Numbered from the stretch's first letter, positions 21,046-62,995 are shown. The stretch: DNA of 64,000 nucleotides from an uncultured Alphaproteobacteria bacterium (GCA_963697785.1 OY969098.1:1107386-1171385), one strand, 5' to 3'. Numbers and translations are program-made. Notes: a model not told the origin generated them from the sequence alone.

Positions 21046-22002
21046 TCAGTATCGCGACGCCGCCGCAGCTTCGCGTGCTCTTTGTAAGAGGGGCGCAAGG
21101 TTAGCGTTCTCGACGTATCGGCCCACTACATTCGGCGTTTTCCACCCACCAGCCTGCATAATCGGCAAAAGACTTAATCCCGAAACAATCATGTCCTGCG
21201 CTGCGCCCACGCGCATCGAGTGACTTGATAGGCCATTGACGACCTGGGCGGACAGACCGGCGGCCCGGGCCGTCCGCTTTAAAATCCGATTGATCGAGTA
21301 GGGGTGGAGAGCGCGATTGCCGATGCAGTGGCCACGGACGGCCGTAAAGATGTAGCCCGAGTCGATTTGTGCCGCTTTCAACCAGCCGCGAACCAGCGTC
21401 AGGGTTTCAGGTGAAACATATCCAAGCCTACCTTCTCCATAGGGATCGCTTTTGGACCGTCTTATGAAAATCTGAGCAGATCTGCGAAACGGGGAGTTGA
21501 GATCCTCCACCCGCAAGCCGACCAATTCCGAGCGTCGACAAAGCGTGTCGTACCCGAGCATGATCATCGCACAATCGCGCGCTCCGGCTAGCGTTTTTGG
21601 ACAAGCAGCGATCAAGAGATCTCTTAGATCAATCGTGAGCCCCAATGCTTGTCGCGGTCTAGCGCGCTTCTTCCGCAGCGCTCGCCGTAAAGCAATGGTG
21701 ACCTCTTCGTCAGTTACAGGACTTTCCATTCGGAGAAGCCGATGGATTTTGCGAATAGCCGCCAGCCGACGCTTGAGGGTCGCCGCCGAAGAGTGCTCTG
21801 TTTGGTCCGCGATGAAGGTGGCAACTGTTTCAGCCGTTGCAGGGAGGGGGCTGCGTCTTTCGACGCTGCACCAAACGTCAAATGCTTCGAAATCACACCT
21901 GTAGGCTTTGAGAGTGCTAGCAGCATAAGCCCCCTCAAGACGCCTCAAGGCAGTCCTCCAATCGGCACGGAGGGACTTGCGTTGTCGCGAAGGGGCAGTC
22001 AT
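21046..22002 (-). CDS. tyrosine recombinase / island integrase
   Basis: Intact 318 aa with a LCRRSELVGLRVEDL Arg box, SSHSMRVGAAQDM (HxxR) and GGWKTPNVVGRYV (catalytic Tyr region). Confidence 0.85.
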   Translation of the reverse strand: MTAPSRQRKSLRADWRTALRRLEGAYAASTLKAYRCDFEAFDVWCSVERRSPLPATAETVATFIADQTEHSSAATLKRRLAAIRKIHRLLRMESPVTDEEVTIALRRALRKKRARPRQALGLTIDLRDLLIAACPKTLAGARDCAMIMLGYDTLCRRSELVGLRVEDLNSPFRRSAQIFIRRSKSDPYGEGRLGYVSPETLTLVRGWLKAAQIDSGYIFTAVRGHCIGNRALHPYSINRILKRTARAAGLSAQVVNGLSSHSMRVGAAQDMIVSGLSLLPIMQAGGWKTPNVVGRYVENANLAPLLQRAREAAAASRY

Positions 22003-51307: not shown

Positions 51308-52370
51308 TTGGAGGGCGACCTTGTGACGGACGGTGTCATAAGAATCCTTTCAATCGACGGCGGCGGCATTCGCGGGATTATCCCAGCAATCGTCATCAAA
51401 GCTTTGCTGGGCGACCTGAGGGCACAAGACACTTTTCACATCATCGCAGGCACGTCGACCGGGGGCATTATCGCCTGTGGCCTGGCGAAACCGGATCCCA
51501 TAGACCTCGACGACATCATCAATCTTTACGTGGAACATGGAGGAGAGATTTTCAAAAAGAGGCTGATAGACATCGGTCATTATCTCTACGGTCCGAGATA
51601 TCGATCGGCGACTTTGGAGAACTATCTGGCCTCAGAATTTGGAAACACATTCCTCTCGGAAGTAAGGGGCATTGAATTGCTAGTACCCAGCTATGCAATT
51701 GGACTGCCGAAGGAGAAGCCGCCCGGTAATTCATGCGCGCCGATGTTCTTTCGAAGCTGGCAGGCACGGGGCCAATTGCTCGGGCCGGGTGTGACGCGTG
51801 AAGAATATGATTTTGAACTTAAGTCAGTCGCCCGGGCAACTTCGGCAGCTCCGACCTTTTTCCCGCCTGCGACGATTGTGAATAGGGCAGGGCAACCGTT
51901 CACGATGATTGACGGTGGCGTATTCGCGAATGATCCGGCGTTATGCGCAGTGGTAGAAGGGTATCATTTATATCACTCAAAAGAATTTTTGGTTGTCTCG
52001 ATTGGTACAGGCGGTGATCCCACCGCGCGATGCTCACGGCTGCTGCCCTGGGGAGACCTTTGGGGTTGCCGATTCGACCTGCATGGTCTCGAACGTAGCG
52101 CGAAACGGCAGGCTAGGTGAAAATAGCCAGAAGGATAGCCGTTTCGCTCACCAGGAACACCCCAAGGGCGATCGAAGCTGCAATGGCTGTCGCTTCGCCG
52201 TCGATCATCAAGGCGTCCAGGAACGAGCAGAAGATCTCATAGAGACTAGGCGAGCCGATATAGAAAAATTCAGGACAGAATTGTCTAAGCCAAGAGCGAA
52301 TCTTCAGGTGAAGGGATACTTGCCTGCGAAGGGCATTTTGACGTCTCCGGATGAGCAGGGACAGACGTGA
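51308..52370 (+). pseudogene. patatin-like phospholipase, C-terminal frameshift(s) after about 52010
   Basis: ILSIDGGGIRGIIPA (oxyanion), IIAGTSTGGIIA (GxSxG) and IDGGVFANDPA (Asp dyad). After VVSIGTG the reading frame breaks. ORF 51993-52370 supplies a plausible tail. Confidence 0.7.
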
Positions 52371-52539
52371 TTACGCAGGAGCTAACCAGCGATCTCGATT
52401 TGTTCCCCAGGAGACTGGTATAGTTTTTCGTATCTGAAGAATGAGTGCACGGCAGAACAGCGCCGTCATCCTTGTGCCTGCGGGAGAATTTCCGTGCCCG
52501 GCGCCGCCGGCGTCGGATAAGGGGTCCCGGAGGTTTTTG

Positions 52540-52980
52540 TTGGCGATCGGCTGTCCGCGCCGGATTAGCGGCGGAGAGTTGACCGAAGCCCGCAACCTTC
52601 ACCCGCAAGTCGATGAGAATGTAATCATCTTTGGAGCGAACCACGTCGCGACCTTCTACACCGTTTAATTGAAAAATGCGCGTTAGGACGTCAGCGGGTT
52701 TTGGCGATTGTCGATTCCGACCCGCGTTTCCGGAATCAAACGCTTTGCGCGACCCCTTATTGGAACGCCAGAGGATCTGCCTGCGATCCTGCACGAGTAC
52801 AGAACTCATGGCATTGAAATTCGCGCATTGAAATTCGCGAACTCTCGTTGCGATCGAGCGGTCGCAATTGTCTCAACCGCGCCGCAATGTCTGCGGCCGA
52901 CAAAGAGCGGCTCATGGAGACTTGTTCAGTAATCGGCAGCGTGCTCCATCCAGGTTCGTATTCCACAGGAGCCCGATTCG
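52540..52980 (+). pseudogene. decayed internal fragment of a third sugar-transferase paralog
   Basis: GELTEARNLHPQVDENVIIFGANHVATFYT..IGTPEDLPAILHEYRTHGIEIR..IERSQLSQ aligns with residues about 135-260 of the 38213 gene (roughly 85% nt identity by eye). It contains a 15-bp tandem duplication, cattgaaattcgcgc/cattgaaattcgcga (52811-52840). Confidence 0.6.
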
Positions 52981-52999: not shown

Positions 53000-53770
53000 C
53001 TACTTGGCCAATTGCGCAAAATATATCCGCGTGGCATACGGCACGTTCATTTTTTCTGGGAAGCTCGCCAGGTATTTCGTGATTTCGGCGATGATCCGAT
53101 CGAATACCGCATCACTGCCCGCTTGACGTCTCAAAGTGGCATGCGATTTCCAAGCGATGATGACATCGGCCTTAGGCATTTCCCAATTGAACGTGCGTTC
53201 GATCGACTTCGCTGGCAAAAAATAGCCGCTGGAATTGATCACATTGGTGGGGTCTTCTCGCCTTGACCCATAAGAATAGCCCGCGATGAACGATTTGATA
53301 ATAGATTCAATTTTCTGCTGAATGGGATCGTCCAAATCTCGGTGATTCCACATGCAGGCAAACCATCCGCGCGGCAATAGTATTCTCTTGACCTCTGCCA
53401 ACGTGGCCTTTTGATCGACCACGTTGAACGAGCTGCCAAAAAATACGGCGTGAAAGGTATTCGCTGGCAATCCAGTCGCCTCGCCGGTTCCGACGGACCA
53501 AGTAACGGATTTTCCATTTGTATTTTTGATGCCGATTTCGCGCATCGCATCGTTCGGCTCAACCGATTGAAGAGTCAGCCCGTGCTTCAGCAACTCCTTC
53601 GTGAGTTTGCCGGTGCCTGCGCCGATTTCGGCGATAGGGGTTTGCGGGGTGCATCCCGTGGCGGTTACCAGATCCCTGATTGCGTCATAGGAGTAGTCGG
53701 CTCTCTTATCGTAGTGAGACGCATGCTCTGTGTAATCCCAATTGACTTTTGGACTCGTCGAATTTGTCAT
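53000..53770 (-). CDS. class I SAM-dependent methyltransferase
   Basis: ATG at 53770 follows GAGGAATATT. IAEIGAGTGKLTKELLKHGLTLQSVEPNDAMRE (motif I and post-I) and FHAVFFGSSFN. Intact. GC is lower than in the upstream genes. Confidence 0.75.
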   Translation of the reverse strand: MTNSTSPKVNWDYTEHASHYDKRADYSYDAIRDLVTATGCTPQTPIAEIGAGTGKLTKELLKHGLTLQSVEPNDAMREIGIKNTNGKSVTWSVGTGEATGLPANTFHAVFFGSSFNVVDQKATLAEVKRILLPRGWFACMWNHRDLDDPIQQKIESIIKSFIAGYSYGSRREDPTNVINSSGYFLPAKSIERTFNWEMPKADVIIAWKSHATLRRQAGSDAVFDRIIAEITKYLASFPEKMNVPYATRIYFAQLAK

Positions 53771-53838
53771 AATATTCCTCTTGATGGGTCGTTGATTGGT
53801 CAAGTCGATCAAAGTTGTCGGAGACACGAATAAATTGG

Positions 53839-54609
53839 CTACCAACCAGAGCCCGCGAGAGGCTGCTCCAGCAGGAGTTCGCCGCCTCGGATCATGCCTT
53901 GGTAGAGTTGGACGTCCGCGGGATTGTCGATTTCACCCCACTGGCCGTAGGTGCCGAAGGTGCCCACGGGAACTGCCTTCGCGGCCAGCAGTCGGCGCAA
54001 TAATCCGGTCATGTCGAGACGGTCGCGGACCGGCGCGTCGAGCGTTGCCAGCAATGCTTCAACGGCAGCCCATGCGGTAGGCGTGAATTTGAGGAGGCCG
54101 ATGTACTGCCCCTCGATGTCCTCGATATTCGTCGTCTTGCCGCCGATCTCGAGCAATTCATGGGATGCATCCAGGCGGAAGGTCTCGGCGTCCGACAACG
54201 GATCGCTGAAGCGCCGCGCCCACAGGCGCTGCCATTCCCGATCGTAGCTAATGACGAGCGCTCCCGGCGCATTAGCCAGACCACGCACCAGGTCGCCTCG
54301 ATAGAATATATCAGCGTAGCTGACGATGACCGGCCCTGCGCGCAGCCATTCGGCCGCCGCCGCAAGCGACATTACCATGTTGGTTTCAGCCCATCGCGTG
54401 TTGTCAAAGTAGGACAGACGGGGAAAATTCAGCATCTCGGCGCGATAGCCGCGGACGATTCCTATTTCATCCACTCCGCCGCGTCGCAGCGCCGCTACTT
54501 GACGATCGAGCAGCGGCCTGCCGTCAAGCTCGACCAAACATTTCGGGCGGTTGTCGCCCAACGGCCCCATGCGGCTGCCGCGCCCGGCGGCCAGGATCAC
54601 GGCGCGCAT
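53839..54609 (-). CDS. LicC-like nucleotidyltransferase (Cj1416-like cytidylyltransferase candidate)
   Basis: MRAVILAAGRGSRMGPLGDNRPKCLVELDGRPLL. The start overlaps the upstream stop (TGATG at 54607-54611). Intact. Confidence 0.75.
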   Translation of the reverse strand: MRAVILAAGRGSRMGPLGDNRPKCLVELDGRPLLDRQVAALRRGGVDEIGIVRGYRAEMLNFPRLSYFDNTRWAETNMVMSLAAAAEWLRAGPVIVSYADIFYRGDLVRGLANAPGALVISYDREWQRLWARRFSDPLSDAETFRLDASHELLEIGGKTTNIEDIEGQYIGLLKFTPTAWAAVEALLATLDAPVRDRLDMTGLLRRLLAAKAVPVGTFGTYGQWGEIDNPADVQLYQGMIRGGELLLEQPLAGSGW

Positions 54610-55211
54610 CAAGCCGCCCTGAATACGCGGCGGAAGAGCGCGACATCGAAGTCCGCAAACGGAGTGTTTCGCTCCGGGTGCCACATGATCCCCGTGGTCG
54701 GCCGCCCCGAATCGCGTATCGCCTTGACGACGCCGTCGGCGGCAACCGCCCAGACCTCGAGGGGAGGGCGCGACTCGCGGGCGGCGAAGCGATGATAGCT
54801 GTTGACTTTCATGGGCTCACTGTCGATTTGAATGATTTGACTCTGGGTGACATGGCCTTCGACGCGAAGTAGCGGGATGGCGCATCGTTGCTGGATGAGC
54901 TGCATACCACGGCAAACCCCGAGGATGGGCAGGCCGCGGGATTCCGCCGCGTCCATGAGAGCGTTCTCGGTGGCGTCGCGCTCCGGCGCGTCTCCGCCGA
55001 GCGATGCGAGATCATTGCCTCCCGTCAATAGCAGGCCCGCAACATTCGAAGCGCTGAACATAGCTTGCGCTACGCCGGGAACGTTGGGCATCACCAACGG
55101 TAGTAGTCCGCAGACTGAGATGAATCGCGGCCAAGCCTGATCCAGGCAATCGCGACGCTCGCCATAAGCAGCAACGACCGTTACGCGTTGCGTAATCGCG
55201 ACGGTCTTCAT
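54609..55211 (-). CDS. class I glutamine amidotransferase / peptidase C26 hydrolase (Cj1417-like)
   Basis: GLLLTGGNDL, the nucleophile elbow GVCRGMQLI and GIMWHPER. ATGA overlap with the upstream gene at 55208-55211. Intact. Confidence 0.75.
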   Translation of the reverse strand: MKTVAITQRVTVVAAYGERRDCLDQAWPRFISVCGLLPLVMPNVPGVAQAMFSASNVAGLLLTGGNDLASLGGDAPERDATENALMDAAESRGLPILGVCRGMQLIQQRCAIPLLRVEGHVTQSQIIQIDSEPMKVNSYHRFAARESRPPLEVWAVAADGVVKAIRDSGRPTTGIMWHPERNTPFADFDVALFRRVFRAA

Positions 55212-58147
55212 GCGATCGGCAATACCTGTTGGTTGGTGCAGTCCAGGCACAGCTTCTGCGCGCTCTGCCAGCGCTTATACAGGGTTTCGCCAGCGCCGAT
55301 CACCGCCGGGATGCCGAGCTCGCCAGCGCGAATCGCCATGTGCGAGTTGGCGCCCCCGAACTGGGTGACGAAGCCGCTGATGTCGCGCGTAAAGATCCAG
55401 TCGAAACCCGGATCCGCACTCGGTACGAACAGTATCCGGCCCGCGAAGCTTTCCGGGGGATCGCCGACCGAGGCAATCGGCGCGGTAACGCTTTTGCGCG
55501 TGATGAAGTTGGGCTGACTTGGGGGCAAATGAAAAGCGAAGACTTCATTGGGCGCGGCGATGATGGGCGGCAGGAAGAGCTTGCGCGTCAGCGCATGCCG
55601 CTGTCTGCCGCGCGCGATGCTGTCGAGCAGCCGCTCTCGGACCGAACCGCTCTCGCTATACAGCGTGCGGATGGCATCGTAGTCGAGGAAAGCGCAATCC
55701 TCAACCGAGAGACCGTATTCCTCGCCTACCTGCCGAATCAGCGATAAAGCGTCGCTCAGACTGCGCGTGAACACGAACTTGGCGTACTCTCGGCCTTCTA
55801 TGCCGGCCTTGATGAACTCGATCAAACTCAGCACATCGATATCGAGCTGATGCTCCTTGAGCAGCTGCTCGATGCGTCGCAACTGCTCGATTGACAGCGC
55901 GAAGCGCGGCTGAGCGGACGAACTCGCGCGGGCTTTTGACCAGTCCAAATACAGGTCGGGCGCCTCATCGTAACGAGGCGACAAAATATCGTACGTGCCC
56001 GGCCGCAGGTGGCCGTAGCGCGCCAAGAACTCTTCCTTGCTCAAGTGAGCGAAATCGTGACCGATCCGCGACCCGACAGTGTCGACGCTGGCCATGAACG
56101 TCGTGTGCTCTTCATTATCGAGAACGCCGGCCGCGACGAAGGACTGAAGCAGCTGCACGGCGATGAATCCGGCGCGTGCCAGCCCGGCAAAGGGCAAGGT
56201 TCCGTAGCGTTTGCAGTCCTCGATAAGCCAGTAGATGCGGCTGATTTTGTCGATCTTGGCGTTGGCGATCATCGGCAGGCGCTGAGCCAACAGATCGATC
56301 TTCCCGCGATCGCGCCGCCACAACGCCGTCTCACCGTGGATGATGCGATTGGTGAGACGCCGCAATGCGTCCGACAGTTCGGTGATGTCCGCTTGCGAGA
56401 AGCCGTTCTGCGCCAGCTTGCCAAGCCGCTGCGGCAAATCGAGCGTGTAGCATGAAAAGATGATCTCGAATTCCACCTTGTCGTGCAGCTGCGGTTCGGC
56501 CAATAGTCGATCGATGTAGTAATTCACTAAGCGTCCGGCGAGATCGTTCGGCAGGTCGCGCGGTACGAAGGAATTGAAGCTGACGCGCACGTCGATATAA
56601 GGCAAGCCGTGGAAGCTCACCAATAGCGGGAAGCTGCGCAAATTCTGATAACCGTAATTATCGCGCTGATACGCCCAGATCGCATCGGTGACTAGTTCGC
56701 GATACAACGACAATGACAGCGGCCAGGGTCGCAGGCCTATGATCTCCGCCGGGTTCCAATCCGGCATTACGCCGAAAATCGAGCGTGTGCCGTGCAGAAA
56801 GGGATGCGGACGGCTGAGCAGTTCGACCTTACGAGCCACGTCGGCCAGCGCAGTGTCGACTTTCGCGTCAGCGGCCGTTTCCACGCGGTCTACTGAAAGG
56901 CGGCGGACTTGCAGCAGATAGATTTGCCCGTGGCCATCGATCGCGAATTCCACGTCGATTGCATCGCAGCCAAACAGGCTCTCTAGTTCGCCGACCAGCG
57001 CGAGGACCGGAGCCAAGGCCCCGGGGCAGGCGTCAATGCGCGATTTGAGGCAGAAGAAAGTCTCGAGATTGTCTCCCACCCCACTGGTCACGCGATCCGT
57101 ACGGCCCGACCGATCGTCGTAGTTGACGATGTAGTACGGCCCGCCACCGCTGGGCGGGCGGGAAAAGGCCACGCCGGCCATGGCGACGCCTTCGAGCATA
57201 GGTTGCAGGAAAACTTGGTCCTGCAAGCTTCCCCCGTCGGCAAATGAAGCGATGACCGTTTCGATCGCTTGCGCGATGTCAGCGCTACCCAGAACTCCGA
57301 GCACCGAATCGTAACGTCCGGCCTGGGAACGCGTCGGACCATCCTCGCCCTGCGCGCTGCTGCGGACGATGACGGGGCGGGAGCTCCAGCGCTCGGCTGC
57401 AATCAGGGCCAGCACTGCGGCGCGATCGGTTTGCCACTCGGCCACCGAGAAACGGATTTGCGGCAGGATCCGCGCAGTGCGCAGGCGCGGTGCCAGGATC
57501 TCCAGGGTCTCGGCCTTGGTGCCAAAGCGTATGCCAGCTGGGCGCTTGGTGCTGCCTGTGTCGCGCGCGACACATTCCAGCCAGATGCGGTCCACTGCGG
57601 CGATGCTGTCGAGTTCCCCAAAGTTGTCCAACGTCAGGTCAGGCGCCTCCGGCAGCTCCGCTGGCACATCGAGCCCTACGACATCGCGCAGATCCCCTCG
57701 CTGAGCTGCGGCGTAGATGCCTTTAGCGTCCCGCCGCCGCAATTCGTCCAGCGGTACTCGAAGGTAAATCTCCCAATAACCCGGAATGTTTTCGCGATTC
57801 CAGCGCTGAACTTCATGAAACATTGAAATGGTCGAGCAGATGACGTCTTGGCCCTGGCTGGAGAGCAGCTTGCATAGTCGGGCGTTGCGCATCGCCGATT
57901 TGCGCCGGCTGGCGGTGCTATGACCGAGATCTTCGGAGATCACTTCGCGCAGGGCGTCGCCATCCAGAAAAATGACCGCGCGGCCCGCGGCGCGCAGCCG
58001 ACGCCCAAGCTCGCTGCCAACCGTAGTTTTACCCGCGCCCGACAATCCGGTAATCCAGAACACTTGGCCCGTGCAGGTTTGGGCGTCGGCGGCATCCGGC
58101 GGGCTGGCATGCCTCGAAACTACGTTTGTGTGTCTAAGCGCTCCCAT
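55208..58147 (-). CDS. fusion protein: APS-kinase-like P-loop kinase (aa ~25-185) + PEP/pyruvate-binding ATP-grasp domain + PEP-utilising swivel His domain (Cj1415-like + Cj1418-like)
   Basis: Intact 979 aa. VFWITGLSGAGKTTVGSEL, FLDGDALR and RRRDAKGIYAAAQRGDL form the APS-kinase fold. FGTKAETLEIL and VRSSAQGEDGPTRSQAGRYDSV form the PPDK_N-like part. TQFGGANSHMAIRAGELGIPAVIGAG is the mobile His domain. Confidence 0.85.
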   Translation of the reverse strand: MGALRHTNVVSRHASPPDAADAQTCTGQVFWITGLSGAGKTTVGSELGRRLRAAGRAVIFLDGDALREVISEDLGHSTASRRKSAMRNARLCKLLSSQGQDVICSTISMFHEVQRWNRENIPGYWEIYLRVPLDELRRRDAKGIYAAAQRGDLRDVVGLDVPAELPEAPDLTLDNFGELDSIAAVDRIWLECVARDTGSTKRPAGIRFGTKAETLEILAPRLRTARILPQIRFSVAEWQTDRAAVLALIAAERWSSRPVIVRSSAQGEDGPTRSQAGRYDSVLGVLGSADIAQAIETVIASFADGGSLQDQVFLQPMLEGVAMAGVAFSRPPSGGGPYYIVNYDDRSGRTDRVTSGVGDNLETFFCLKSRIDACPGALAPVLALVGELESLFGCDAIDVEFAIDGHGQIYLLQVRRLSVDRVETAADAKVDTALADVARKVELLSRPHPFLHGTRSIFGVMPDWNPAEIIGLRPWPLSLSLYRELVTDAIWAYQRDNYGYQNLRSFPLLVSFHGLPYIDVRVSFNSFVPRDLPNDLAGRLVNYYIDRLLAEPQLHDKVEFEIIFSCYTLDLPQRLGKLAQNGFSQADITELSDALRRLTNRIIHGETALWRRDRGKIDLLAQRLPMIANAKIDKISRIYWLIEDCKRYGTLPFAGLARAGFIAVQLLQSFVAAGVLDNEEHTTFMASVDTVGSRIGHDFAHLSKEEFLARYGHLRPGTYDILSPRYDEAPDLYLDWSKARASSSAQPRFALSIEQLRRIEQLLKEHQLDIDVLSLIEFIKAGIEGREYAKFVFTRSLSDALSLIRQVGEEYGLSVEDCAFLDYDAIRTLYSESGSVRERLLDSIARGRQRHALTRKLFLPPIIAAPNEVFAFHLPPSQPNFITRKSVTAPIASVGDPPESFAGRILFVPSADPGFDWIFTRDISGFVTQFGGANSHMAIRAGELGIPAVIGAGETLYKRWQSAQKLCLDCTNQQVLPIA

Positions 58148-58153
58148 CTCCCC

Positions 58154-58299
58154 CTCAGTTTACGGTGGTTAGTCCCTCTCAGTTTATGGTGGTTGGATGT
58201 TTTATCGAAATGTCACGCACCTGTCATGTGCGGCTCACGGTTGTTCGTTATTTTCTCGAAGTGTCACAGAAAATGTCACGGACCTGTCATGTGCGGCTC
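58154..58299. promoter_or_regulatory. two pairs of direct repeats in the divergent intergenic region
   Basis: CTCAGTTTA(C/T)GGTGGTT at 58154 and 58178. AAATGTCACG(C/G)ACCTGTCATGTGCGGCTC at 58208 and 58271. TGTCAC/TGTCAT half-sites recur 5 times. Confidence 0.4.
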
Positions 58300-58420
58300 T
58301 TCACGGACGGGGGGAACCGCCAAATCTTGAGCGTAATCAAGCGCGATTTTCCTCCAACGTCGGGTAGTGCGAGGGCTAACTGCCGGCAGGGTTTTCTTTA
58401 GGTTGCGAGTGCGCTACCGA

Positions 58421-59671
58421 ATGAATATGGCAGCGACCTTTAAGGAGGAAAAACTTTTGCAGGACGCTCGGGCACTGTATTGTGCCGAGCAAAATAAAGA
58501 CTTGCGCTCTCTCATAGCCAGAAAAATTGAAGATCTTCGGTCATACGATGTCCTTAACATGGATAGAGCCGTCGCAGTTTGCCATTGGGGCAGAAGCGGG
58601 TCGTTTCTTGCGTGCAGCTACCTTGATGGACATGAAGACGTGCTGCAACTTCCGCCGCGTTTTTGCGAAGAAATCTATCAATTCTTTGACAATTATCAGT
58701 CGTTGTCTCTGCACGACAAGCTGATCATCTACCCGATCGTCACAGATCGTTTTGTAGGAAATTTTCCGATCGCTGCAGGAGATTATTACGCGGCAGTAAC
58801 TGCCATATCTGAGATTTACGGGGATTTTTCGCCGCAACGTCTCGAAACTAGTCGGGCATTCTGTCAATTTATACACGTTGCCCACGGCTTAGCCCTCGGT
58901 CGACGTCCGTCCAGTCCGCACCCCTTGATGGTGTACTCGATGCATTGGTGGGATAAAGCTTTGGCGCCTCGCTTTTTGGCGGACTTTCCGCAGGCTCGCT
59001 TTCTCCATACAGTTCGGGATCCAATCACAACCTACGACCGCTCATTCGAACATTTTGGAATAGCCGATAGGAACGAAGAAGCCTGCTGGCAGTGGATCCG
59101 TTATTTAGAGAAAGCAGACCACCCTCATCCAGGGATGGAAGCATGCACATGCGCAATTCGGTTTGAAGACTTACATAATAAGACAGCGGAAACGATAGGC
59201 CGGCTTGCGGAGTGGCTGAAGCTTCCTCGCCATGCATCGTTGTTGGAAAGTACTTTTAACGGTATGCCCTATGTCGTTGAACGGGCTGGCGTCGCATGGT
59301 CGGGACCTCGCCCCGAGCAAGCGCAGCGGTTTTTGAGCAACATTTCACTCATCGACCAAGCGCTGCTGTTCGCGTTGTTTTATGAAAACTTCGTCGCTTG
59401 GAATTACCCTTGTCCTAAAATTTTTAGACATACATTAGTGCGCGGATTCACGTGTATGCTGCTCTTTCCCGTTCCATGGAAAGCAGAAATAATTAGCGCC
59501 CGCGCGACCATCAGACGCCGCGTGGTTCCGTCTTTGAGGCATCGACGCTTTCGGCTTGCTTTCAGGGAACTATCGGGGGTGTTTAGGCGCCGGCTTTTTA
59601 TAATGTGGTTGGTAACCTCGGAAATCTGTCGGCGGCTTATTTTTGGAAAGACTGTTTTGAAAATACTGTGA
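58421..59671 (+). CDS. sulfotransferase-fold protein
   Basis: The 5'-PSB-like motif is AVCHWGRSGSFLACSYLDG. The 3'-PB-like motif is ARFLHTVRDPITTYDRSF. Intact. GC is lower than in the neighbours. The start (ATG 58421 or 58427) is uncertain. Confidence 0.55.
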   Translation: MNMAATFKEEKLLQDARALYCAEQNKDLRSLIARKIEDLRSYDVLNMDRAVAVCHWGRSGSFLACSYLDGHEDVLQLPPRFCEEIYQFFDNYQSLSLHDKLIIYPIVTDRFVGNFPIAAGDYYAAVTAISEIYGDFSPQRLETSRAFCQFIHVAHGLALGRRPSSPHPLMVYSMHWWDKALAPRFLADFPQARFLHTVRDPITTYDRSFEHFGIADRNEEACWQWIRYLEKADHPHPGMEACTCAIRFEDLHNKTAETIGRLAEWLKLPRHASLLESTFNGMPYVVERAGVAWSGPRPEQAQRFLSNISLIDQALLFALFYENFVAWNYPCPKIFRHTLVRGFTCMLLFPVPWKAEIISARATIRRRVVPSLRHRRFRLAFRELSGVFRRRLFIMWLVTSEICRRLIFGKTVLKIL

Positions 59672-60330: not shown

Positions 60331-61773
60331 ATGAAAAAACGCATCGCTGCAGCGGCTGCACTGACACTAGCGGGCCTTGCGCCTGCAGCCTCGGTCGCGC
60401 AGATCATAGCCGCGTCCGACCAAGTGGCTTTCAAATATCCGCTGAAGGTGTCGGGCAACCACCGCTATCTGGTCGATCAAAACAACAAGCCTTTTATGAT
60501 CGTCGGCAATTCGGGACAGACCTATGTGGCCACGTCCAACTATCGCGACGTGCGAACTTACTTCGCAACCCGAGCGCAGCAAGGTTTCAATAGCGTTGCC
60601 TTCTTCGCCCTCTGCAACAAGAAAGTATTTGCGACATGTAGAGCCGACGCCGCAAGTTTTGATGGAATAAAGCCCTTCACGACGCTGCTCCCCGGTCATT
60701 CCGCGCCCGATTACGACGTCTCAAAGCCCAACGAAGCCTATTGGAAGCGCGTCGACAGCTTCGCGAACCTCGCGGCGCAATTCGGCCTGGTCGTTTTTTT
60801 CAACCCCGCGGAAACGGTTGGATTTTACGACGTCCTCAGTCTCAACTCGGCGGCGCAAGTGCAAGCCTACGGAACTTTCCTTGGCAACCGCTTCAAGAAC
60901 TACCCCAACGTCGTCTGGTTCATGGGCAATGATTTCGGCTTCGGCGCATTTCCCTCGAAAGTGGAGGACGATGTCGTGACGCGGCTGGCGCTGGCAATCA
61001 AGGCAGCCGATCCAAATCACCTCATGACGGTCGAACTGACCTACTTGCTCAGTTCCGCCTGTGATGATTCCACCTGGTGCTCGATCGTCGATCTCAACAG
61101 TTCCTATACGTACGGGCCAGCCTACGGCGAGGATCTTTATTCCTACAATCATTCGCCAACGAAGCCTTCCTTCCTTGTCGAAACCAATTATGACGAAGCC
61201 ACTTGCGGCGCCAACGACGGGCAGGCACCCACCAATCAGAACATGAGGTTTCAGGAATATTGGACGATGCTTTCCGGCATGACCGGCCAGCTTTACGGCG
61301 ATGATTGCGTTTGTCCAGCAACCAACAACTGGCTCAAGCATCTCTCAACGACGGCCGTCACGCAGTTTGGATATCTCACTCAGCTATTCAATTCCGTCCC
61401 TTGGTGGAACCTGGTACCGGATCAGAGGCATATAATCGTGACCGCCGGATACGGAATGAACGATGCTCAGGTTACCGGCAACAACGCCGACTTGCCGACG
61501 CTGACAAGGACATTGAACGCGGATAATTACGTGACGTCGGCCGCGACCCCGGATGGCAGGCTGGCGATGGCTTACTTGCCGGCCGGCGGCACGCTCACGG
61601 TTGCAATGGGGACCTTCGCCGGGCCGGTTACCGCAAAGTGGTTCGATCCGACCAACAATTCGTTCACGACGATCTCTGGCTCGCCGTTTTCGAACAGCGG
61701 CAGCCATGGCTTTACGACGCCGCCGAAAAATAGCGGGGGTGACAGCGATTTCGTGCTTGTCTTAACGCACTGA
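60331..61773 (+). CDS. secreted DUF4038/GH140-like glycoside hydrolase with C-terminal collagenase-type binding domain
   Basis: Signal peptide MKKRIAAAAALTLAGLAPAASVA. HRYLVDQNNKPFMIVGNSGQ..RAQQGFNSV, and the C-terminal RLAMAYLPAGGTLTV..AKWFDPTNN. Intact. Confidence 0.6.
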   Translation: MKKRIAAAAALTLAGLAPAASVAQIIAASDQVAFKYPLKVSGNHRYLVDQNNKPFMIVGNSGQTYVATSNYRDVRTYFATRAQQGFNSVAFFALCNKKVFATCRADAASFDGIKPFTTLLPGHSAPDYDVSKPNEAYWKRVDSFANLAAQFGLVVFFNPAETVGFYDVLSLNSAAQVQAYGTFLGNRFKNYPNVVWFMGNDFGFGAFPSKVEDDVVTRLALAIKAADPNHLMTVELTYLLSSACDDSTWCSIVDLNSSYTYGPAYGEDLYSYNHSPTKPSFLVETNYDEATCGANDGQAPTNQNMRFQEYWTMLSGMTGQLYGDDCVCPATNNWLKHLSTTAVTQFGYLTQLFNSVPWWNLVPDQRHIIVTAGYGMNDAQVTGNNADLPTLTRTLNADNYVTSAATPDGRLAMAYLPAGGTLTVAMGTFAGPVTAKWFDPTNNSFTTISGSPFSNSGSHGFTTPPKNSGGDSDFVLVLTH

Positions 61774-62143
61774 GATATCGCGGCTGTACTCTAAAAGATG
61801 GATGGATGGCGCATTTGGCCGTTTGAGGGGCAGGGATCGACCGAACGCTCGGCAGTCGAGGATCGAAAGGTTCTTTTGGCGCCCTGGCAGAGAAGCGGCT
61901 GATGCGCGCGAAAGGAGGGACGTCGTCCTACTGCGACCCGTTTACGATTGACCTTGGGGGCGGTAGATAAACATTCTAACTGCCGATCTGGCTTAGCGAG
62001 TTTGCTCCGAGGCATCCTATGCGTCTAATTTAGAGACGGAACTGTACGCGGAAGTGGCGCTCAACATTGTTTCGATCTCTCGAAACTTGCGCGTGAGCGC
62101 CCACAGAACTCGGTCCCTGGCGAGGGCCAAGAAATGGTAGGAA

Positions 62144-62995
62144 ATGACTGCGACGATGATTTACAAGGTCCGCACTCGGACGATGTTGCAAATCTGGTGC
62201 ACACTTTTTGTGCTCACTATTGCAGTCGTGGTACTTTGTGTTCGCTACCTGGACCGGCCAATTTGCCTATTTGCTGACAGCATATTCGGTCAGTTTACTT
62301 GGATCGGCGACTTCAAGCGTACACCAAATTTTTTCGACCCGTTGGCGCTGCTGCTATTTGCGCTCTTCCTGTTACGTCGATTGGCAGGCCGACCGATAGG
62401 CAAGCTCGACATTCTTTGCGTTCTTGGCGATGCGAGTCTCCTGCTCACTCGATATACAAGTGACAAACTGAAGTACGTCTTCGCGCGTACCTATCCAAAG
62501 TACGGTTCTCCCTCCCTCATTCACGACGGGGCGTATAGCTTCAACTTTTTTCGGCCCGGACGCGATTACCTGTCGTTTCCCTCCGGGCATGCGGCTGCTC
62601 TCTGCTGCGTGCTCTCCGTTCTGTGGATCTTATATCCGCGGTTTAGGGCGCTCTATGCACTAACTGCGATTGGATTTTCTGTCGTATTAGTCGCAACAAA
62701 TTATCATTTCCTGTCAGACGTCATCGCCGGGGGATTCATAGGTGCATCGTGCGGCGTACTTACTGTTTTTACGTGGCGTCGCCTGTCTCCGAACTCGGCG
62801 TTGCAAACGTCCCCTTTCGAAAGCGTTCCGGTAGCTGAGCAGCCGGATTTATTGCAGCAAGGGAGCGCATGCTCCCAGCCTGCTGACAAGACTTCAGCTT
62901 TAGACTTCCGAGGTTCTAAGAAGAGGGAGCTGCGGCGAATAATATCGGGGCCGGCGCCGACTGATTTAGGCAAGCGAGAGCTCTTAGATGATTAG
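62144..62995 (+). CDS. PAP2-family membrane phosphatase (intact paralog of 23983-24785)
   Basis: SFPSGHAAAL and NYHFLSDVIAGGFIGA. About 80% nt identity to the first copy by eye. Confidence 0.8.
   Translation: MTATMIYKVRTRTMLQIWCTLFVLTIAVVVLCVRYLDRPICLFADSIFGQFTWIGDFKRTPNFFDPLALLLFALFLLRRLAGRPIGKLDILCVLGDASLLLTRYTSDKLKYVFARTYPKYGSPSLIHDGAYSFNFFRPGRDYLSFPSGHAAALCCVLSVLWILYPRFRALYALTAIGFSVVLVATNYHFLSDVIAGGFIGASCGVLTVFTWRRLSPNSALQTSPFESVPVAEQPDLLQQGSACSQPADKTSALDFRGSKKRELRRIISGPAPTDLGKRELLDD

What the first reader, a model, noticed from the sequence alone, without database searches (positions are those of the whole stretch)
53000..59671. Intact Cj1415-Cj1418-type phosphoramidate (MeOPN-like) donor pathway in a non-Campylobacter polysaccharide island
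Three translationally coupled minus-strand genes supply the four enzyme folds of the Campylobacter jejuni O-methyl-phosphoramidate donor pathway, and a fourth gene follows after a ~70-nt gap. Coupling shows as an ATGA overlap at 55208-55211 and a TGATG overlap at 54607-54611. The folds are:
- a PEP-utilising/PPDK-like enzyme with a swivel His (Cj1418, L-glutamine kinase);
- a class I amidotransferase/peptidase C26 with CRGMQL Cys and MWHPE His (Cj1417, gamma-glutamyl-CDP-amidate hydrolase);
- a LicC-like nucleotidyltransferase (Cj1416, CTP:phosphoglutamine cytidylyltransferase);
- an APS-kinase-like P-loop kinase (Cj1415, cytidine diphosphoramidate 3'-kinase).

A SAM methyltransferase follows. 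In Campylobacter, Cj1419 and Cj1420 are methyltransferases. The order 1418->1417->1416 matches C. jejuni. No ATP sulfurylase is in the window, so the APS-kinase module is unlikely to be making PAPS. All these genes are intact although most genes in the window are disrupted. The implied product is a phosphoramidate-decorated glycan, a modification known mainly from Campylobacter capsules.
Basis: partly seen in the sequence, partly recalled or inferred. Interest (0 to 1): 0.85.

Follow-up and report, generated by a model that had tools for sequence, protein, structure and literature searches.

The report
Phosphoramidate sugar-tagging gene cassette in soil bacterium
A soil methylotroph (Methylovirgula) carries an intact, horizontally mobile five-gene set that very probably makes the phosphoramidate donor known from Campylobacter capsules, and related sets occur in hundreds of soil bacteria, so this "Campylobacter-only" sugar decoration may be widespread.

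Summary
On the minus strand lie four intact genes:
- a 979-aa fusion of a CysC-like kinase and a Cj1418-type glutamine kinase (55208-58147);
- a C26 amidohydrolase (54609-55211);
- a LicC-like cytidylyltransferase (53839-54609);
- a SAM methyltransferase (53000-53770), after a 68-nt gap.

The ATGA and TGATG overlaps sit exactly where stated.

Curated models support the Cj1415-Cj1418 reading. The large protein scores 962 bits on NF004508. The kinase domain passes only NF004041. The C26 protein's best family is gamma-glutamyl-CDP-amidate hydrolase, but below its cut-off. C. jejuni sequences could not be obtained for direct comparison.

The host is a Methylovirgula MAG. The cassette is not rare: more than 576 genome loci in at least seven phyla carry it, in the same gene order, under purifying selection. 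In this window it is a recently exchanged, inverted 5.1-kb module.

The divergent neighbour (58421-59671) has a sulfotransferase fold. It, or a second unannotated sulfotransferase-fold family, accompanies the cassette in 44 of 56 loci. No ATP sulfurylase is nearby. I infer that these proteins transfer phosphoramidate from 3'-phospho-CDP-amidate, a PAPS analogue.

Verdict: a known pathway in a new variant, of moderately high interest.

The parts
55208..58147 (-). 979-aa bifunctional protein: N-terminal CysC-like kinase fused to a Cj1418-type L-glutamine kinase
   Evidence: Intact ORF. Pfam and NCBIfam domain hits. Exact match to an NCBI Methylovirgula MAG protein. dN/dS is 0.16 against L001 and 0.11 against L004.
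57626..58069 (-). Kinase domain (aa 27-174; P-loop GLSGAGKT at 34-41, LDGD at 61-64). Predicted cytidine diphosphoramidate 3'-kinase, the Cj1415 role.
   Evidence: PF01583 E 8e-35. NF004041 scores 182 bits, above its cut-off of 127. TIGR00455 (122 < 138.7) and PRK03846 (100 < 163) are not met. PDB hits are APS kinases at about 90 bits.
55217..57538 (-). Glutamine-kinase module (aa 204-977): ATP-grasp/PPDK_N domain plus swivel phospho-histidine domain
   Evidence: NF004508 scores 962 bits over model positions 7-787 of 789. 1879 clusters at the 50% identity level reach E <= 1e-30, and the top 150 are all of this type.
55340..55342 (-). Codon of His936, the putative phospho-carrier (swivel) histidine in GGANSHMAIR
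   Evidence: Position. Invariant in an alignment of 28 homologues sharing 32-53% identity.
54609..55211 (-). 200-aa C26/class I amidotransferase-type hydrolase. Predicted gamma-glutamyl-CDP-amidate hydrolase, the Cj1417 role. Cys100 codon at 54912-54914; His178 in WHPE.
   Evidence: PF07722 E 2e-25. NF045546 is the best hit (106 bits, positions 3-186 of 198) but below its cut-off of 250. The start is translationally coupled through an ATGA overlap.
53839..54609 (-). 256-aa LicC-like nucleotidyltransferase. Predicted CTP:phosphoglutamine cytidylyltransferase, the Cj1416 role.
   Evidence: PF12804 E 5e-21. The best PDB match is LicC, 1jyk. Members of the 90% cluster of a homologue 62% identical to it are named L-glutamine-phosphate cytidylyltransferase by IMG. 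In other lineages this domain is fused to the glutamine kinase.
53000..53770 (-). 256-aa class I SAM methyltransferase. Candidate O-methyltransferase acting on the phosphoramidate.
   Evidence: PF08241 E 7e-12. A methyltransferase occupies this position in 49 of 56 related loci. dN/dS is 0.12 against L001.
58421..59671 (+). 416-aa sulfotransferase-fold protein, transcribed divergently. Candidate phosphoramidate transferase. GRSGS (5'-phosphate loop) at 58589-58603; RDP (3'-phosphate motif) at 59015-59023.
   Evidence: Weak Sulfotransfer_3 hit. AF2 model with pLDDT 87.6. All top Foldseek hits are PAP(S) sulfotransferases. Of 7 distant homologues on long contigs, 5 sit directly after the four-gene cassette.
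58148..58420 (.). Divergent intergenic (promoter) region with two pairs of direct repeats: 58149-58170 / 58173-58194 and 58208-58236 / 58271-58299
   Evidence: the repeat finder. Both repeat types occur only here in the window; chance expectation is 0.00 and 0.01 matches respectively. Function untested.

Best explanation
The locus is a complete donor cassette for a nucleotide-activated phosphoramidate, plus its likely transferase. It sits in an exopolysaccharide/O-antigen-type island of a Methylovirgula (Beijerinckiaceae) genome.

Proposed steps:
1. The C-terminal module of the 979-aa protein uses ATP. [quoted passage not shown]
2. The LicC-like enzyme condenses L-glutamine phosphate with CTP to give CDP-L-glutamine.
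3. The C26 hydrolase (Cys100/His178) removes glutamate, leaving cytidine diphosphoramidate.
4. The fused N-terminal CysC-like domain phosphorylates the 3'-OH, giving 3'-phospho-CDP-amidate, a structural analogue of PAPS.
5. The divergently encoded sulfotransferase-fold protein binds this 3'-phosphonucleotide. It transfers the phosphoramidate to a sugar hydroxyl and releases cytidine 3',5'-bisphosphate.
6. The SAM methyltransferase O-methylates the phosphoramidate to give a MeOPN-like group.

Steps 1-4 are inferred from family membership and from the characterised C. jejuni enzymes. Steps 5 and 6 are inferred from fold, motifs and gene linkage only.

The four-gene block is a horizontally mobile module under purifying selection.
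For: Family assignments. IMG's independent names, 'glutamine kinase' and 'L-glutamine-phosphate cytidylyltransferase'.

Pathway chemistry is taken from PMC11800397 and the Borg preprint's summary of Taylor et al. 2017.

Fusion evidence: kinase-GlnK fusions and NTase-GlnK fusions both exist within the family.

Conserved order: K-C26-NT-MT in nearly all of 80 loci. dN/dS is 0.09-0.21.

No cysD, cysN or sat gene in the window or in 80 loci.

Transferase evidence:
- The neighbour has a sulfotransferase fold with both phosphate-binding motifs conserved.
- 5 of 7 reverse look-ups land directly after the cassette.
- A second, unannotated family is also sulfotransferase-fold.
- Its distribution is almost mutually exclusive with the first; one or the other is present in 44 of 56 loci.
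- The Azospirillum lipoferum 4B cluster carries Sulfotransfer_1 genes.

Glycan context: glycosyltransferases, Bac_transf and an ABC exporter in the window; Wza, Wzc and EpsH in related loci.
Against: - No direct comparison with the C. jejuni proteins was possible.
- The C26 protein is below the equivalog cut-off of the Cj1417 model (106 vs 250).
- The kinase's nucleotide specificity (CDP-amidate or APS) cannot be read from sequence.
- The neighbour retains every hallmark of a genuine PAPS sulfotransferase.
- One homologue of the neighbour has no cassette within 8 kb, and one sits beside a kinase-less, C26/NT-less remnant.
- A kinase-containing cluster in the Smac51 plasmid shows no recognisable sulfotransferase-fold gene.
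- The surrounding island is ORF-poor and holds gene fragments, so the acceptor glycan may no longer be made.
- Family members exist outside any such pathway, for example a Firmicutes ICE copy without C26 or NT partners.
Confidence: 0.72

Rival explanations
1. Sulfation module. The N-terminal domain is a true APS kinase that makes PAPS for the adjacent sulfotransferase, and the glutamine kinase/C26/NTase trio does something separate.
For: The domain hits PF01583 and solved APS kinases. The neighbour has a canonical sulfotransferase fold and motifs. In one Vibrio plasmid, cysDN lies next to a glutamine-kinase cluster.
Against: The domain passes only the PRK05541 subfamily model, not the CysC equivalogs. 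It is covalently fused to the glutamine kinase in hundreds of genomes. No cysDN or sat gene lies within 8 kb in 80 loci or anywhere in the window. The Vibrio cluster has no kinase domain at all. The C. jejuni CysC homologue Cj1415 is needed to make the 3'-phosphorylated CDP-amidate (PMC11800397).
Confidence: 0.1
2. The donor pathway is right, but the sulfotransferase-fold neighbour is an ordinary PAPS-dependent polysaccharide sulfotransferase. The real phosphoramidate transferase is encoded elsewhere or is of another type.
For: Transferase candidates differ among clusters: TagF-like in Vibrio and Pseudohalocynthiibacter, a CDP-alcohol phosphatidyltransferase in Agrobacterium vitis, and unknown 413-aa proteins in Smac51. 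One homologue of the neighbour lies away from any cassette.
Against: Two sulfotransferase-fold families with no detectable sequence similarity alternate at the same position next to the kinase-containing cassette in 79% of loci. The three clusters with CDP-type transferases annotated beside them (Vibrio, Agrobacterium vitis, Pseudohalocynthiibacter) have no kinase annotated nearby. That fits a 3'-phosphate-reading transferase accompanying the kinase.
Confidence: 0.2
3. The cassette is intact but idle. It was recently acquired into a decaying island, so no phosphoramidate-decorated glycan is made in this organism.
For: Long-ORF coverage is 52% against a median of 85% in controls. The island holds fragmentary glycosyltransferase, carbamoyltransferase, Asn-synthase and Bac_transf genes. 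The cassette is 92% identical to L084 while its flanks are 66-79% identical. A sister assembly carries a frameshift in the methyltransferase, and L001 carries a premature TAG in the large gene.
Against: All five genes are intact here. dN/dS is 0.1-0.2. An intact Bac_transf, an ABC exporter and several glycosyltransferases remain.
Confidence: 0.2
4. The large protein is a PEP synthase, a pyruvate phosphate dikinase or a rifampicin phosphotransferase relative that has nothing to do with phosphoramidates.
For: It shares the PPDK_N and PEP-utilizers domains. PGAP names it 'PEP-utilizing enzyme'.
Against: It scores 47-54 bits on models whose cut-offs are 598-999, against 962 bits on NF004508. Its synteny with C26 and NTase genes is conserved.
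Confidence: 0.03

Closest known systems
Campylobacter jejuni MeOPN donor pathway, Cj1418 -> Cj1416 -> Cj1417 -> Cj1415 (Taylor & Raushel 2017-2018; summarised in PMC11800397)
   Same: The same four enzyme folds, and the same gene order for the first three genes. A SAM methyltransferase is adjacent. The context is polysaccharide biosynthesis. No ATP sulfurylase partner is present.
   Different: The kinase is fused to the N-terminus of the glutamine kinase instead of being a separate last gene. The C26 protein falls below the Campylobacter equivalog cut-off. The candidate transferase is a 416-aa sulfotransferase-fold protein, and its relationship to Cj1421/Cj1422 was not tested. The host is a soil alphaproteobacterium. 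The cassette is spread across at least seven phyla.
PAPS system (CysC APS kinase plus PAPS-dependent sulfotransferases)
   Same: A CysC-fold kinase creates a 3'-phosphonucleotide donor. The transferase has a sulfotransferase fold with 5'- and 3'-phosphate-binding motifs. A CysQ-like phosphatase occurs in 5 related loci.
   Different: No ATP sulfurylase is nearby. The kinase is fused to, and co-inherited with, glutamine kinase, C26 and NTase genes. The predicted group transferred is phosphoramidate, not sulfate.
Putative MeOPN cluster of Cobalt Borg (bioRxiv 10.1101/2024.11.05.622173)
   Same: A non-Campylobacter occurrence of glutamine kinase, cytidylyltransferase and hydrolase genes, inferred by structure.
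   Different: That cluster is on an archaeal extrachromosomal element. No kinase fusion or sulfotransferase-fold partner was reported, and one of its NTases is fused to a PEP mutase.
Kinase-less glutamine kinase/C26/NTase clusters on plasmids of Vibrio alfacsensis, Agrobacterium vitis and Pseudohalocynthiibacter
   Same: The same GlnK-C26-NT core, with translational coupling.
   Different: No Cj1415-like kinase is present. The neighbours are CDP-type transferases (TagF-like, or CDP-alcohol phosphatidyltransferase), which suggests direct use of a CDP-linked donor.

Membership tests
Cj1418-type L-glutamine kinase (NCBIfam NF004508/PRK05849) | Full-length match above the curated cut-off | tested here: met
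   962 bits against a cut-off of 501, covering model positions 7-787 of 789. That this model contains Cj1418 is from my memory. IMG's name 'glutamine kinase' for members of the cluster of a homologue 83% identical to it supports it independently.
Cj1418-type L-glutamine kinase | Conserved swivel histidine in the PEP-utilizers mobile domain | tested here: met
   His936 in GGANSH, invariant in 28 homologues.
Cj1418-type L-glutamine kinase | [quoted passage not shown] | not testable with these tools
   Requires an enzyme assay.
Cj1417 gamma-glutamyl-CDP-amidate hydrolase (NF045546) | Score above the equivalog cut-off | tested here: not met
   106 bits against 250. It is still the best family by 60 bits. 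All C26 partners of glutamine kinases tested in other bacteria behave the same way, at 75-126 bits. The protein is therefore a relative of that family, not a certified equivalog.
Cj1417 gamma-glutamyl-CDP-amidate hydrolase | Cys-His(-Glu) triad, and adjacency to glutamine kinase and cytidylyltransferase genes | tested here: met
   Cys100 and His178-Pro-Glu. Overlapping start and stop codons on both sides.
Cj1416 CTP:phosphoglutamine cytidylyltransferase | LicC-like NTP_transf_3 fold encoded next to the glutamine kinase | tested here: met
   Pfam. Best PDB match is LicC, 1jyk. IMG names homologues L-glutamine-phosphate cytidylyltransferase. NTase-GlnK fusions exist. Substrate specificity was not tested.
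Cj1415 cytidine diphosphoramidate kinase | CysC-like kinase of the PRK05541 subfamily, not a canonical APS kinase, and without an ATP sulfurylase partner | tested here: met
   NF004041 scores 182, above 127. TIGR00455, PRK00889 and PRK03846 are all below their cut-offs. No cysDN or sat gene nearby. That PRK05541 contains Cj1415 is from memory.
C. jejuni MeOPN system as a whole | Reciprocal best hits to Cj1415-Cj1420, and a transferase homologous to Cj1421/Cj1422 | not tested
   No C. jejuni sequence could be retrieved with the available collections. The Raushel papers are not held.
C. jejuni MeOPN system as a whole | An O-methyl phosphoramidate group on the glycan | not testable with these tools
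   Needs 31P-NMR or MS.
PAPS-dependent sulfotransferases (for the 416-aa neighbour) | Sulfotransferase fold with 5'-PSB and 3'-PB motifs | tested here: met
   16 Foldseek hits at E <= 1e-3, all sulfotransferases. G57, S59, G60 and R199, D200, P201 are invariant; R58 and S61 are nearly invariant.
PAPS-dependent sulfotransferases (for the 416-aa neighbour) | Use of PAPS as donor | not testable with these tools
   Linkage points to the phosphoramidate cassette instead.
PEP synthase / PPDK / rifampicin phosphotransferase | Score above the family cut-offs | tested here: not met
   27-54 bits against cut-offs of 456-1700.

The most novel reading that the evidence does not exclude
Sulfotransferase-fold proteins form a previously unrecognised class of phosphoramidate transferases. 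At least two families with no detectable sequence similarity are involved, one of which has no Pfam or other annotation and more than 1000 members. They would use 3'-phospho-CDP-amidate exactly as sulfotransferases use PAPS. On this reading, MeOPN-type decoration of surface glycans, regarded as a Campylobacter peculiarity, is spread by a mobile 5-kb cassette through soil and peat bacteria of at least seven phyla.
Probability: 0.45. Interest if true: 0.8.

Novelty: new variant of a known kind. Interest (0 to 1): 0.62.

Why it matters
Reviews still describe phosphoramidate (P-N) decoration of glycans as unique to Campylobacter (PMC6429109) and its glutamine kinase as C. jejuni-specific (PMC9561416). 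The transfer and methylation steps remain biochemically unsolved even there (PMC12409886).

The same donor chemistry appears to be encoded in hundreds of soil, peat and rhizosphere bacteria, including cultured Azospirillum. This points to:
- a broad, unexplored class of P-N-bearing exopolysaccharides;
- tractable, soluble candidate transferases;
- culturable organisms in which to test for them;
- a correction to PGAP annotation, which names these genes adenylyl-sulfate kinase/PEP-utilizing enzyme, PuuD-family hydrolase and phosphocholine cytidylyltransferase.

Tried and rejected
1. Obtaining Cj1415-Cj1422 sequences failed by every route.
   - PDB sequence searches returned no C. jejuni MeOPN enzymes.
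   - The four Raushel papers are not held.
   - Low-GC representatives of the family turned out to be marine or Firmicutes proteins, not Campylobacter.
2. Profile-profile comparison of the two sulfotransferase-fold families found only a local LEDF/FEDL motif (probability 2%). Only structure prediction showed the common fold.
3. The two 413-aa hypothetical proteins of the Smac51 cluster match neither family, nor any Pfam model.
4. The N-terminus of the Azospirillum 846-aa kinase protein has sulfotransferase-like motifs by eye. Pfam gives only Sulfotransfer_2 at E = 0.19, and hhalign gives nothing. I treat this as a hint only.
5. A search for inverted repeats at the cassette borders found nothing above chance.
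6. The promoter and terminator scan was not enriched over shuffles.
7. No tRNA is in the window.
8. A literature search for 'MeOPN transferase' together with 'sulfotransferase' returned nothing.

Full report
**What is in the sequence**

Four intact genes lie on the minus strand:
- a 979-aa ORF (55208-58147);
- a 200-aa ORF (54609-55211);
- a 256-aa ORF (53839-54609);
- after a 68-nt spacer with an AAGAGGA ribosome-binding site, another 256-aa ORF (53000-53770).

Pfam gives these domains:
- 979-aa protein: APS_kinase at residues 27-174, then PPDK_N and the PEP-utilizers mobile domain at 903-972;
- 200-aa protein: Peptidase_C26/GATase;
- first 256-aa protein: NTP_transf_3;
- second 256-aa protein: Methyltransf_11.

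The named motifs are present: GLSGAGKT at 34-41, GGANSH with His936, CRGMQ with Cys100, and WHPE with His178. His936 is invariant across 28 homologues that share only 32-53% identity.

**Family assignment**

- Residues 204-977 score 962 bits on NF004508 (cut-off 501). They score 27-54 bits on PEP synthase, PPDK and rifampicin phosphotransferase models whose cut-offs are 456-1700.
- The N-terminal domain passes only the NF004041/PRK05541 kinase subfamily (182 > 127). It fails the canonical CysC models: TIGR00455 at 122 < 138.7, PRK03846 at 100 < 163, and PRK00889 at 122 < 244.
- The best family for the C26 protein is NF045546, 'gamma-glutamyl-CDP-amidate hydrolase', at 106 bits. The next best is PuuD at 45 bits. 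The score is below the narrow equivalog cut-off of 250.

C26 partners of glutamine-kinase genes from Azospirillum, Vibrio, Agrobacterium and a deltaproteobacterium behave the same way, at 75-126 bits. A stand-alone partner kinase also passes only NF004041.

The NTase's best solved relative is LicC, 1jyk.

IMG's independent pipeline gives matching names. It calls members of the cluster of a homologue 83% identical to the large protein 'glutamine kinase'. It calls homologues of the NTase 'L-glutamine-phosphate cytidylyltransferase'.

I could not retrieve any C. jejuni sequence, so a direct reciprocal-best-hit test remains undone. The link of the PRK05849 and PRK05541 models to Cj1418 and Cj1415 rests on my memory.

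**Host**

The four window proteins are exact matches to NCBI MAG proteins labelled Methylovirgula sp., on a 2.74-Mb contig. Methylovirgula belongs to the Beijerinckiaceae, Alphaproteobacteria.

PGAP names them PEP-utilizing enzyme/adenylyl-sulfate kinase, gamma-glutamyl-GABA hydrolase family, phosphocholine cytidylyltransferase family, and class I SAM methyltransferase. The pathway is therefore invisible in the NCBI annotation.

**Context**

The window is a polysaccharide island. It holds GT2 and GT1/GT4 glycosyltransferases, an intact Bac_transf initiating transferase, a 761-aa ABC exporter, methyltransferases and an integrase.

The island is ORF-poor. ORFs of 200 aa or more cover 52% of it, against a median of 85% and a minimum of 63% in 55 control loci. 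Several Pfam hits are fragments. 'Many genes disrupted' is fair; 'most' is not shown.

A sister assembly, ENA ERZ25039540 contig_22766, is 98.7% identical to the window. Its indels are concentrated at 52.0-52.8 kb, just beyond the methyltransferase.

**Distribution**

The best 80 hits share 56-92% identity. They come from Acidobacteriota, Alpha-, Gamma- and Betaproteobacteria, Gemmatimonadota, Planctomycetota, Eremiobacterota, Actinomycetota and Binataceae. Most are peat, bog or soil MAGs.

The order K-C26-NT-MT is conserved in nearly all of them.

An exhaustive HMMER search found 1879 clusters at the 50% identity level with E <= 1e-30. The top 150 fall into three architectures:
- stand-alone enzymes of about 780 aa;
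- kinase fusions of about 975 aa;
- proteins of about 1000-1050 aa; two of the four tested show an NTP_transf_3 (NTase) domain at the N-terminus.

These fusions give independent evidence that the kinase and the NTase work with the glutamine kinase.

Cultured carriers on plasmids include Azospirillum lipoferum 4B, Vibrio alfacsensis, Agrobacterium vitis, Pseudohalocynthiibacter and a cockroach-gut deltaproteobacterium.

Not every family member belongs to such a pathway. A Firmicutes conjugative-element copy has no C26 or NTase partner.

**Mobility and selection**

dN/dS for the four genes is 0.12-0.21 against L001 and about 0.1 against L004.

Against L084, DNA identity is 92.1% over exactly 53000-58130, which runs from the start of the large gene to the methyltransferase stop. 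That block is inverted relative to the flanking ABC, Bac_transf and sulfotransferase-like genes, which are only 66-79% identical.

GC content is 61-63% for the first three genes, against 55% for the window.

The four-gene donor block therefore behaves as a recently exchanged module.

**The fifth gene**

The finding's end coordinate is the stop of a divergent gene. Its likely start is 58421, giving 416 aa. Pfam reports only a weak Sulfotransfer_3 hit.

An AlphaFold model has pLDDT 87.6. Its matches in the PDB are PAP(S)-dependent sulfotransferases: TPST1/2, CurM-ST, OLS-ST and Stf9, at E 2e-5 to 8e-4.

GRSGS (5'-phosphate loop) and RDP (3'-phosphate motif) are conserved in 27 homologues: G57, S59, G60, R199, D200 and P201 are invariant, and R58 and S61 nearly so.

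I looked up seven homologues sharing 47-53% identity on long contigs:
- five lie immediately after K-C26-NT-MT, two of them as tandem pairs;
- one follows a GlnK-MT remnant;
- one has no cassette within 8 kb.

Of 56 related loci with enough flanking sequence, 12 carry this family. A further 34 carry a different family of about 290 aa at the same position. Only 2 carry both, so 44 of 56 (79%) have one or the other.

The second family has more than 1064 members, all annotated 'hypothetical', with no Pfam hit. It shows no significant profile similarity to the first family. Its model (pLDDT 81.9) nevertheless matches 57 sulfotransferase structures at E <= 1e-3.

The Azospirillum cluster carries two Sulfotransfer_1 genes. 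Five loci add a CysQ-like inositol-monophosphatase-family gene.

No cysD, cysN or sat gene occurs in the window or within 8 kb in any of the 80 loci.

Kinase-less clusters instead have CDP-type transferases as neighbours: TagF-like in Vibrio and Pseudohalocynthiibacter, and a CDP-alcohol phosphatidyltransferase in Agrobacterium. One kinase-containing cluster, in the Smac51 plasmid, has unidentified 413-aa neighbours, so the correlation is not perfect.

**Mechanism**

The most economical reading is the C. jejuni chemistry (PMC11800397; Borg preprint):
1. L-Gln is converted to L-Gln-phosphate.
2. L-Gln-phosphate is converted to CDP-L-Gln.
3. CDP-L-Gln is hydrolysed to CDP-amidate.
4. CDP-amidate is phosphorylated to 3'-phospho-CDP-amidate.

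The first and last activities sit on one polypeptide.

Because the product is a PAPS analogue, a sulfotransferase-fold enzyme is a natural transferase. It would release cytidine 3',5'-bisphosphate, and the methyltransferase would complete a MeOPN-like group.

Steps 1-4 are inferred from homology. The transfer and methylation steps are inferred from fold and linkage only.

**Novelty**

A 2019 review states that the modification is known only from Campylobacter. A 2022 review calls the glutamine kinase C. jejuni-specific. In 2025 the transfer enzymology was still open.

Among 23 searchable papers that mention 'glutamine kinase', the only non-Campylobacter report I saw was a Borg preprint. IMG already labels these proteins correctly, however.

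I therefore rate this a new variant of a known kind. It is a fused, mobile, widely distributed form with a probable new class of transferase. It is not a categorically new system.

Noticed in passing
window 53000-58130 vs L084 4516-9631: The four-gene cassette is 92% identical in DNA to that of another MAG, and its borders fall at the start of the first gene and the stop of the last. It is inverted relative to flanking genes that are only 66-79% identical. This indicates recent cassette-level exchange or inversion. No inverted repeats lie at the borders.
   Followed up: partly
L007-L076 (e.g. L064 13410-14462; proteins P0356-P0475): A family of more than 1000 'hypothetical' proteins of about 290 aa, with no Pfam hit, lies right after the cassette in 34 of 56 loci, usually in convergent orientation. 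Its motifs are GLFGSGRxY, YRHPLDSLLTNW and LRLEDF. AlphaFold plus Foldseek show a sulfotransferase fold. Some copies are fused to an N-terminal region of about 600 aa that contains a P-loop motif (L014 12442-15249).
   Followed up: yes
window 58148-58420: The divergent intergenic region holds two pairs of direct repeats: 22 nt repeated twice, 24 nt apart, ending at the start codon of the large gene; and 29 nt repeated twice, 63 nt apart. Both are unique to this spot in the window. They may be operator or promoter duplications.
   Followed up: partly
window 1-48000 and 52000-52800: The island is ORF-poor. It contains fragments of glycosyltransferase, carbamoyltransferase, asparagine synthase and a second Bac_transf gene, and an integrase at 21046-22002. 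Against a 98.7%-identical sister assembly, 41 of 51 indels fall within 52.0-52.8 kb, nearly all as deletions in the window. This is either a decaying gene or a local assembly error.
   Followed up: partly
L001 about 10614 (codon 872 of the large gene); L081 about 5270: Two close relatives carry lesions in the cassette. L001 has a premature TAG in the glutamine-kinase gene. The sister assembly has a 1-nt insertion that truncates the methyltransferase to 199 aa. These may be sequencing errors or the beginnings of decay.
   Followed up: no
L088 (Vibrio alfacsensis plasmid), L092 (Agrobacterium vitis), L090 (Pseudohalocynthiibacter): Kinase-less GlnK-C26-NT clusters lie next to TagF-like or CDP-alcohol phosphatidyltransferase genes. 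This suggests a second pathway type that uses a CDP-linked donor directly. In Vibrio, cysDN and an SLC13 permease are divergent neighbours. In A. vitis the context (LysE, TauD, asparaginase) looks like small-molecule metabolism.
   Followed up: partly
L083 7048-9588 (Azospirillum lipoferum 4B plasmid p6): An 846-aa protein annotated 'adenylyl-sulfate kinase' has the Cj1415-like kinase at its C-terminus. Its N-terminus carries sulfotransferase-2-like motifs, FIHFDLPRAAGDS and FVRNPFDWYISSYYW. Pfam gives only E = 0.19. This may be a transferase-kinase fusion.
   Followed up: partly
L093/L094 10001-12340: A 779-aa family member scoring 837 bits on NF004508 sits on a Firmicutes conjugative element next to a Cyclase-family gene. 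It has no C26 or NTase partner, so the family probably includes enzymes with other substrates.
   Followed up: no
L013 6725-7606, L016, L050, L053, L073: A CysQ-like inositol-monophosphatase-family gene lies near the cassette in five loci. It could recycle the predicted by-product, cytidine 3',5'-bisphosphate.
   Followed up: no
window 60331-62995: Downstream of the sulfotransferase-fold gene lie an intact secreted apiosidase-like (GH140-type) protein with a collagen-binding-type C-terminal domain, and a PAP2 phosphatase. Any relation to the cassette is unknown.
   Followed up: no
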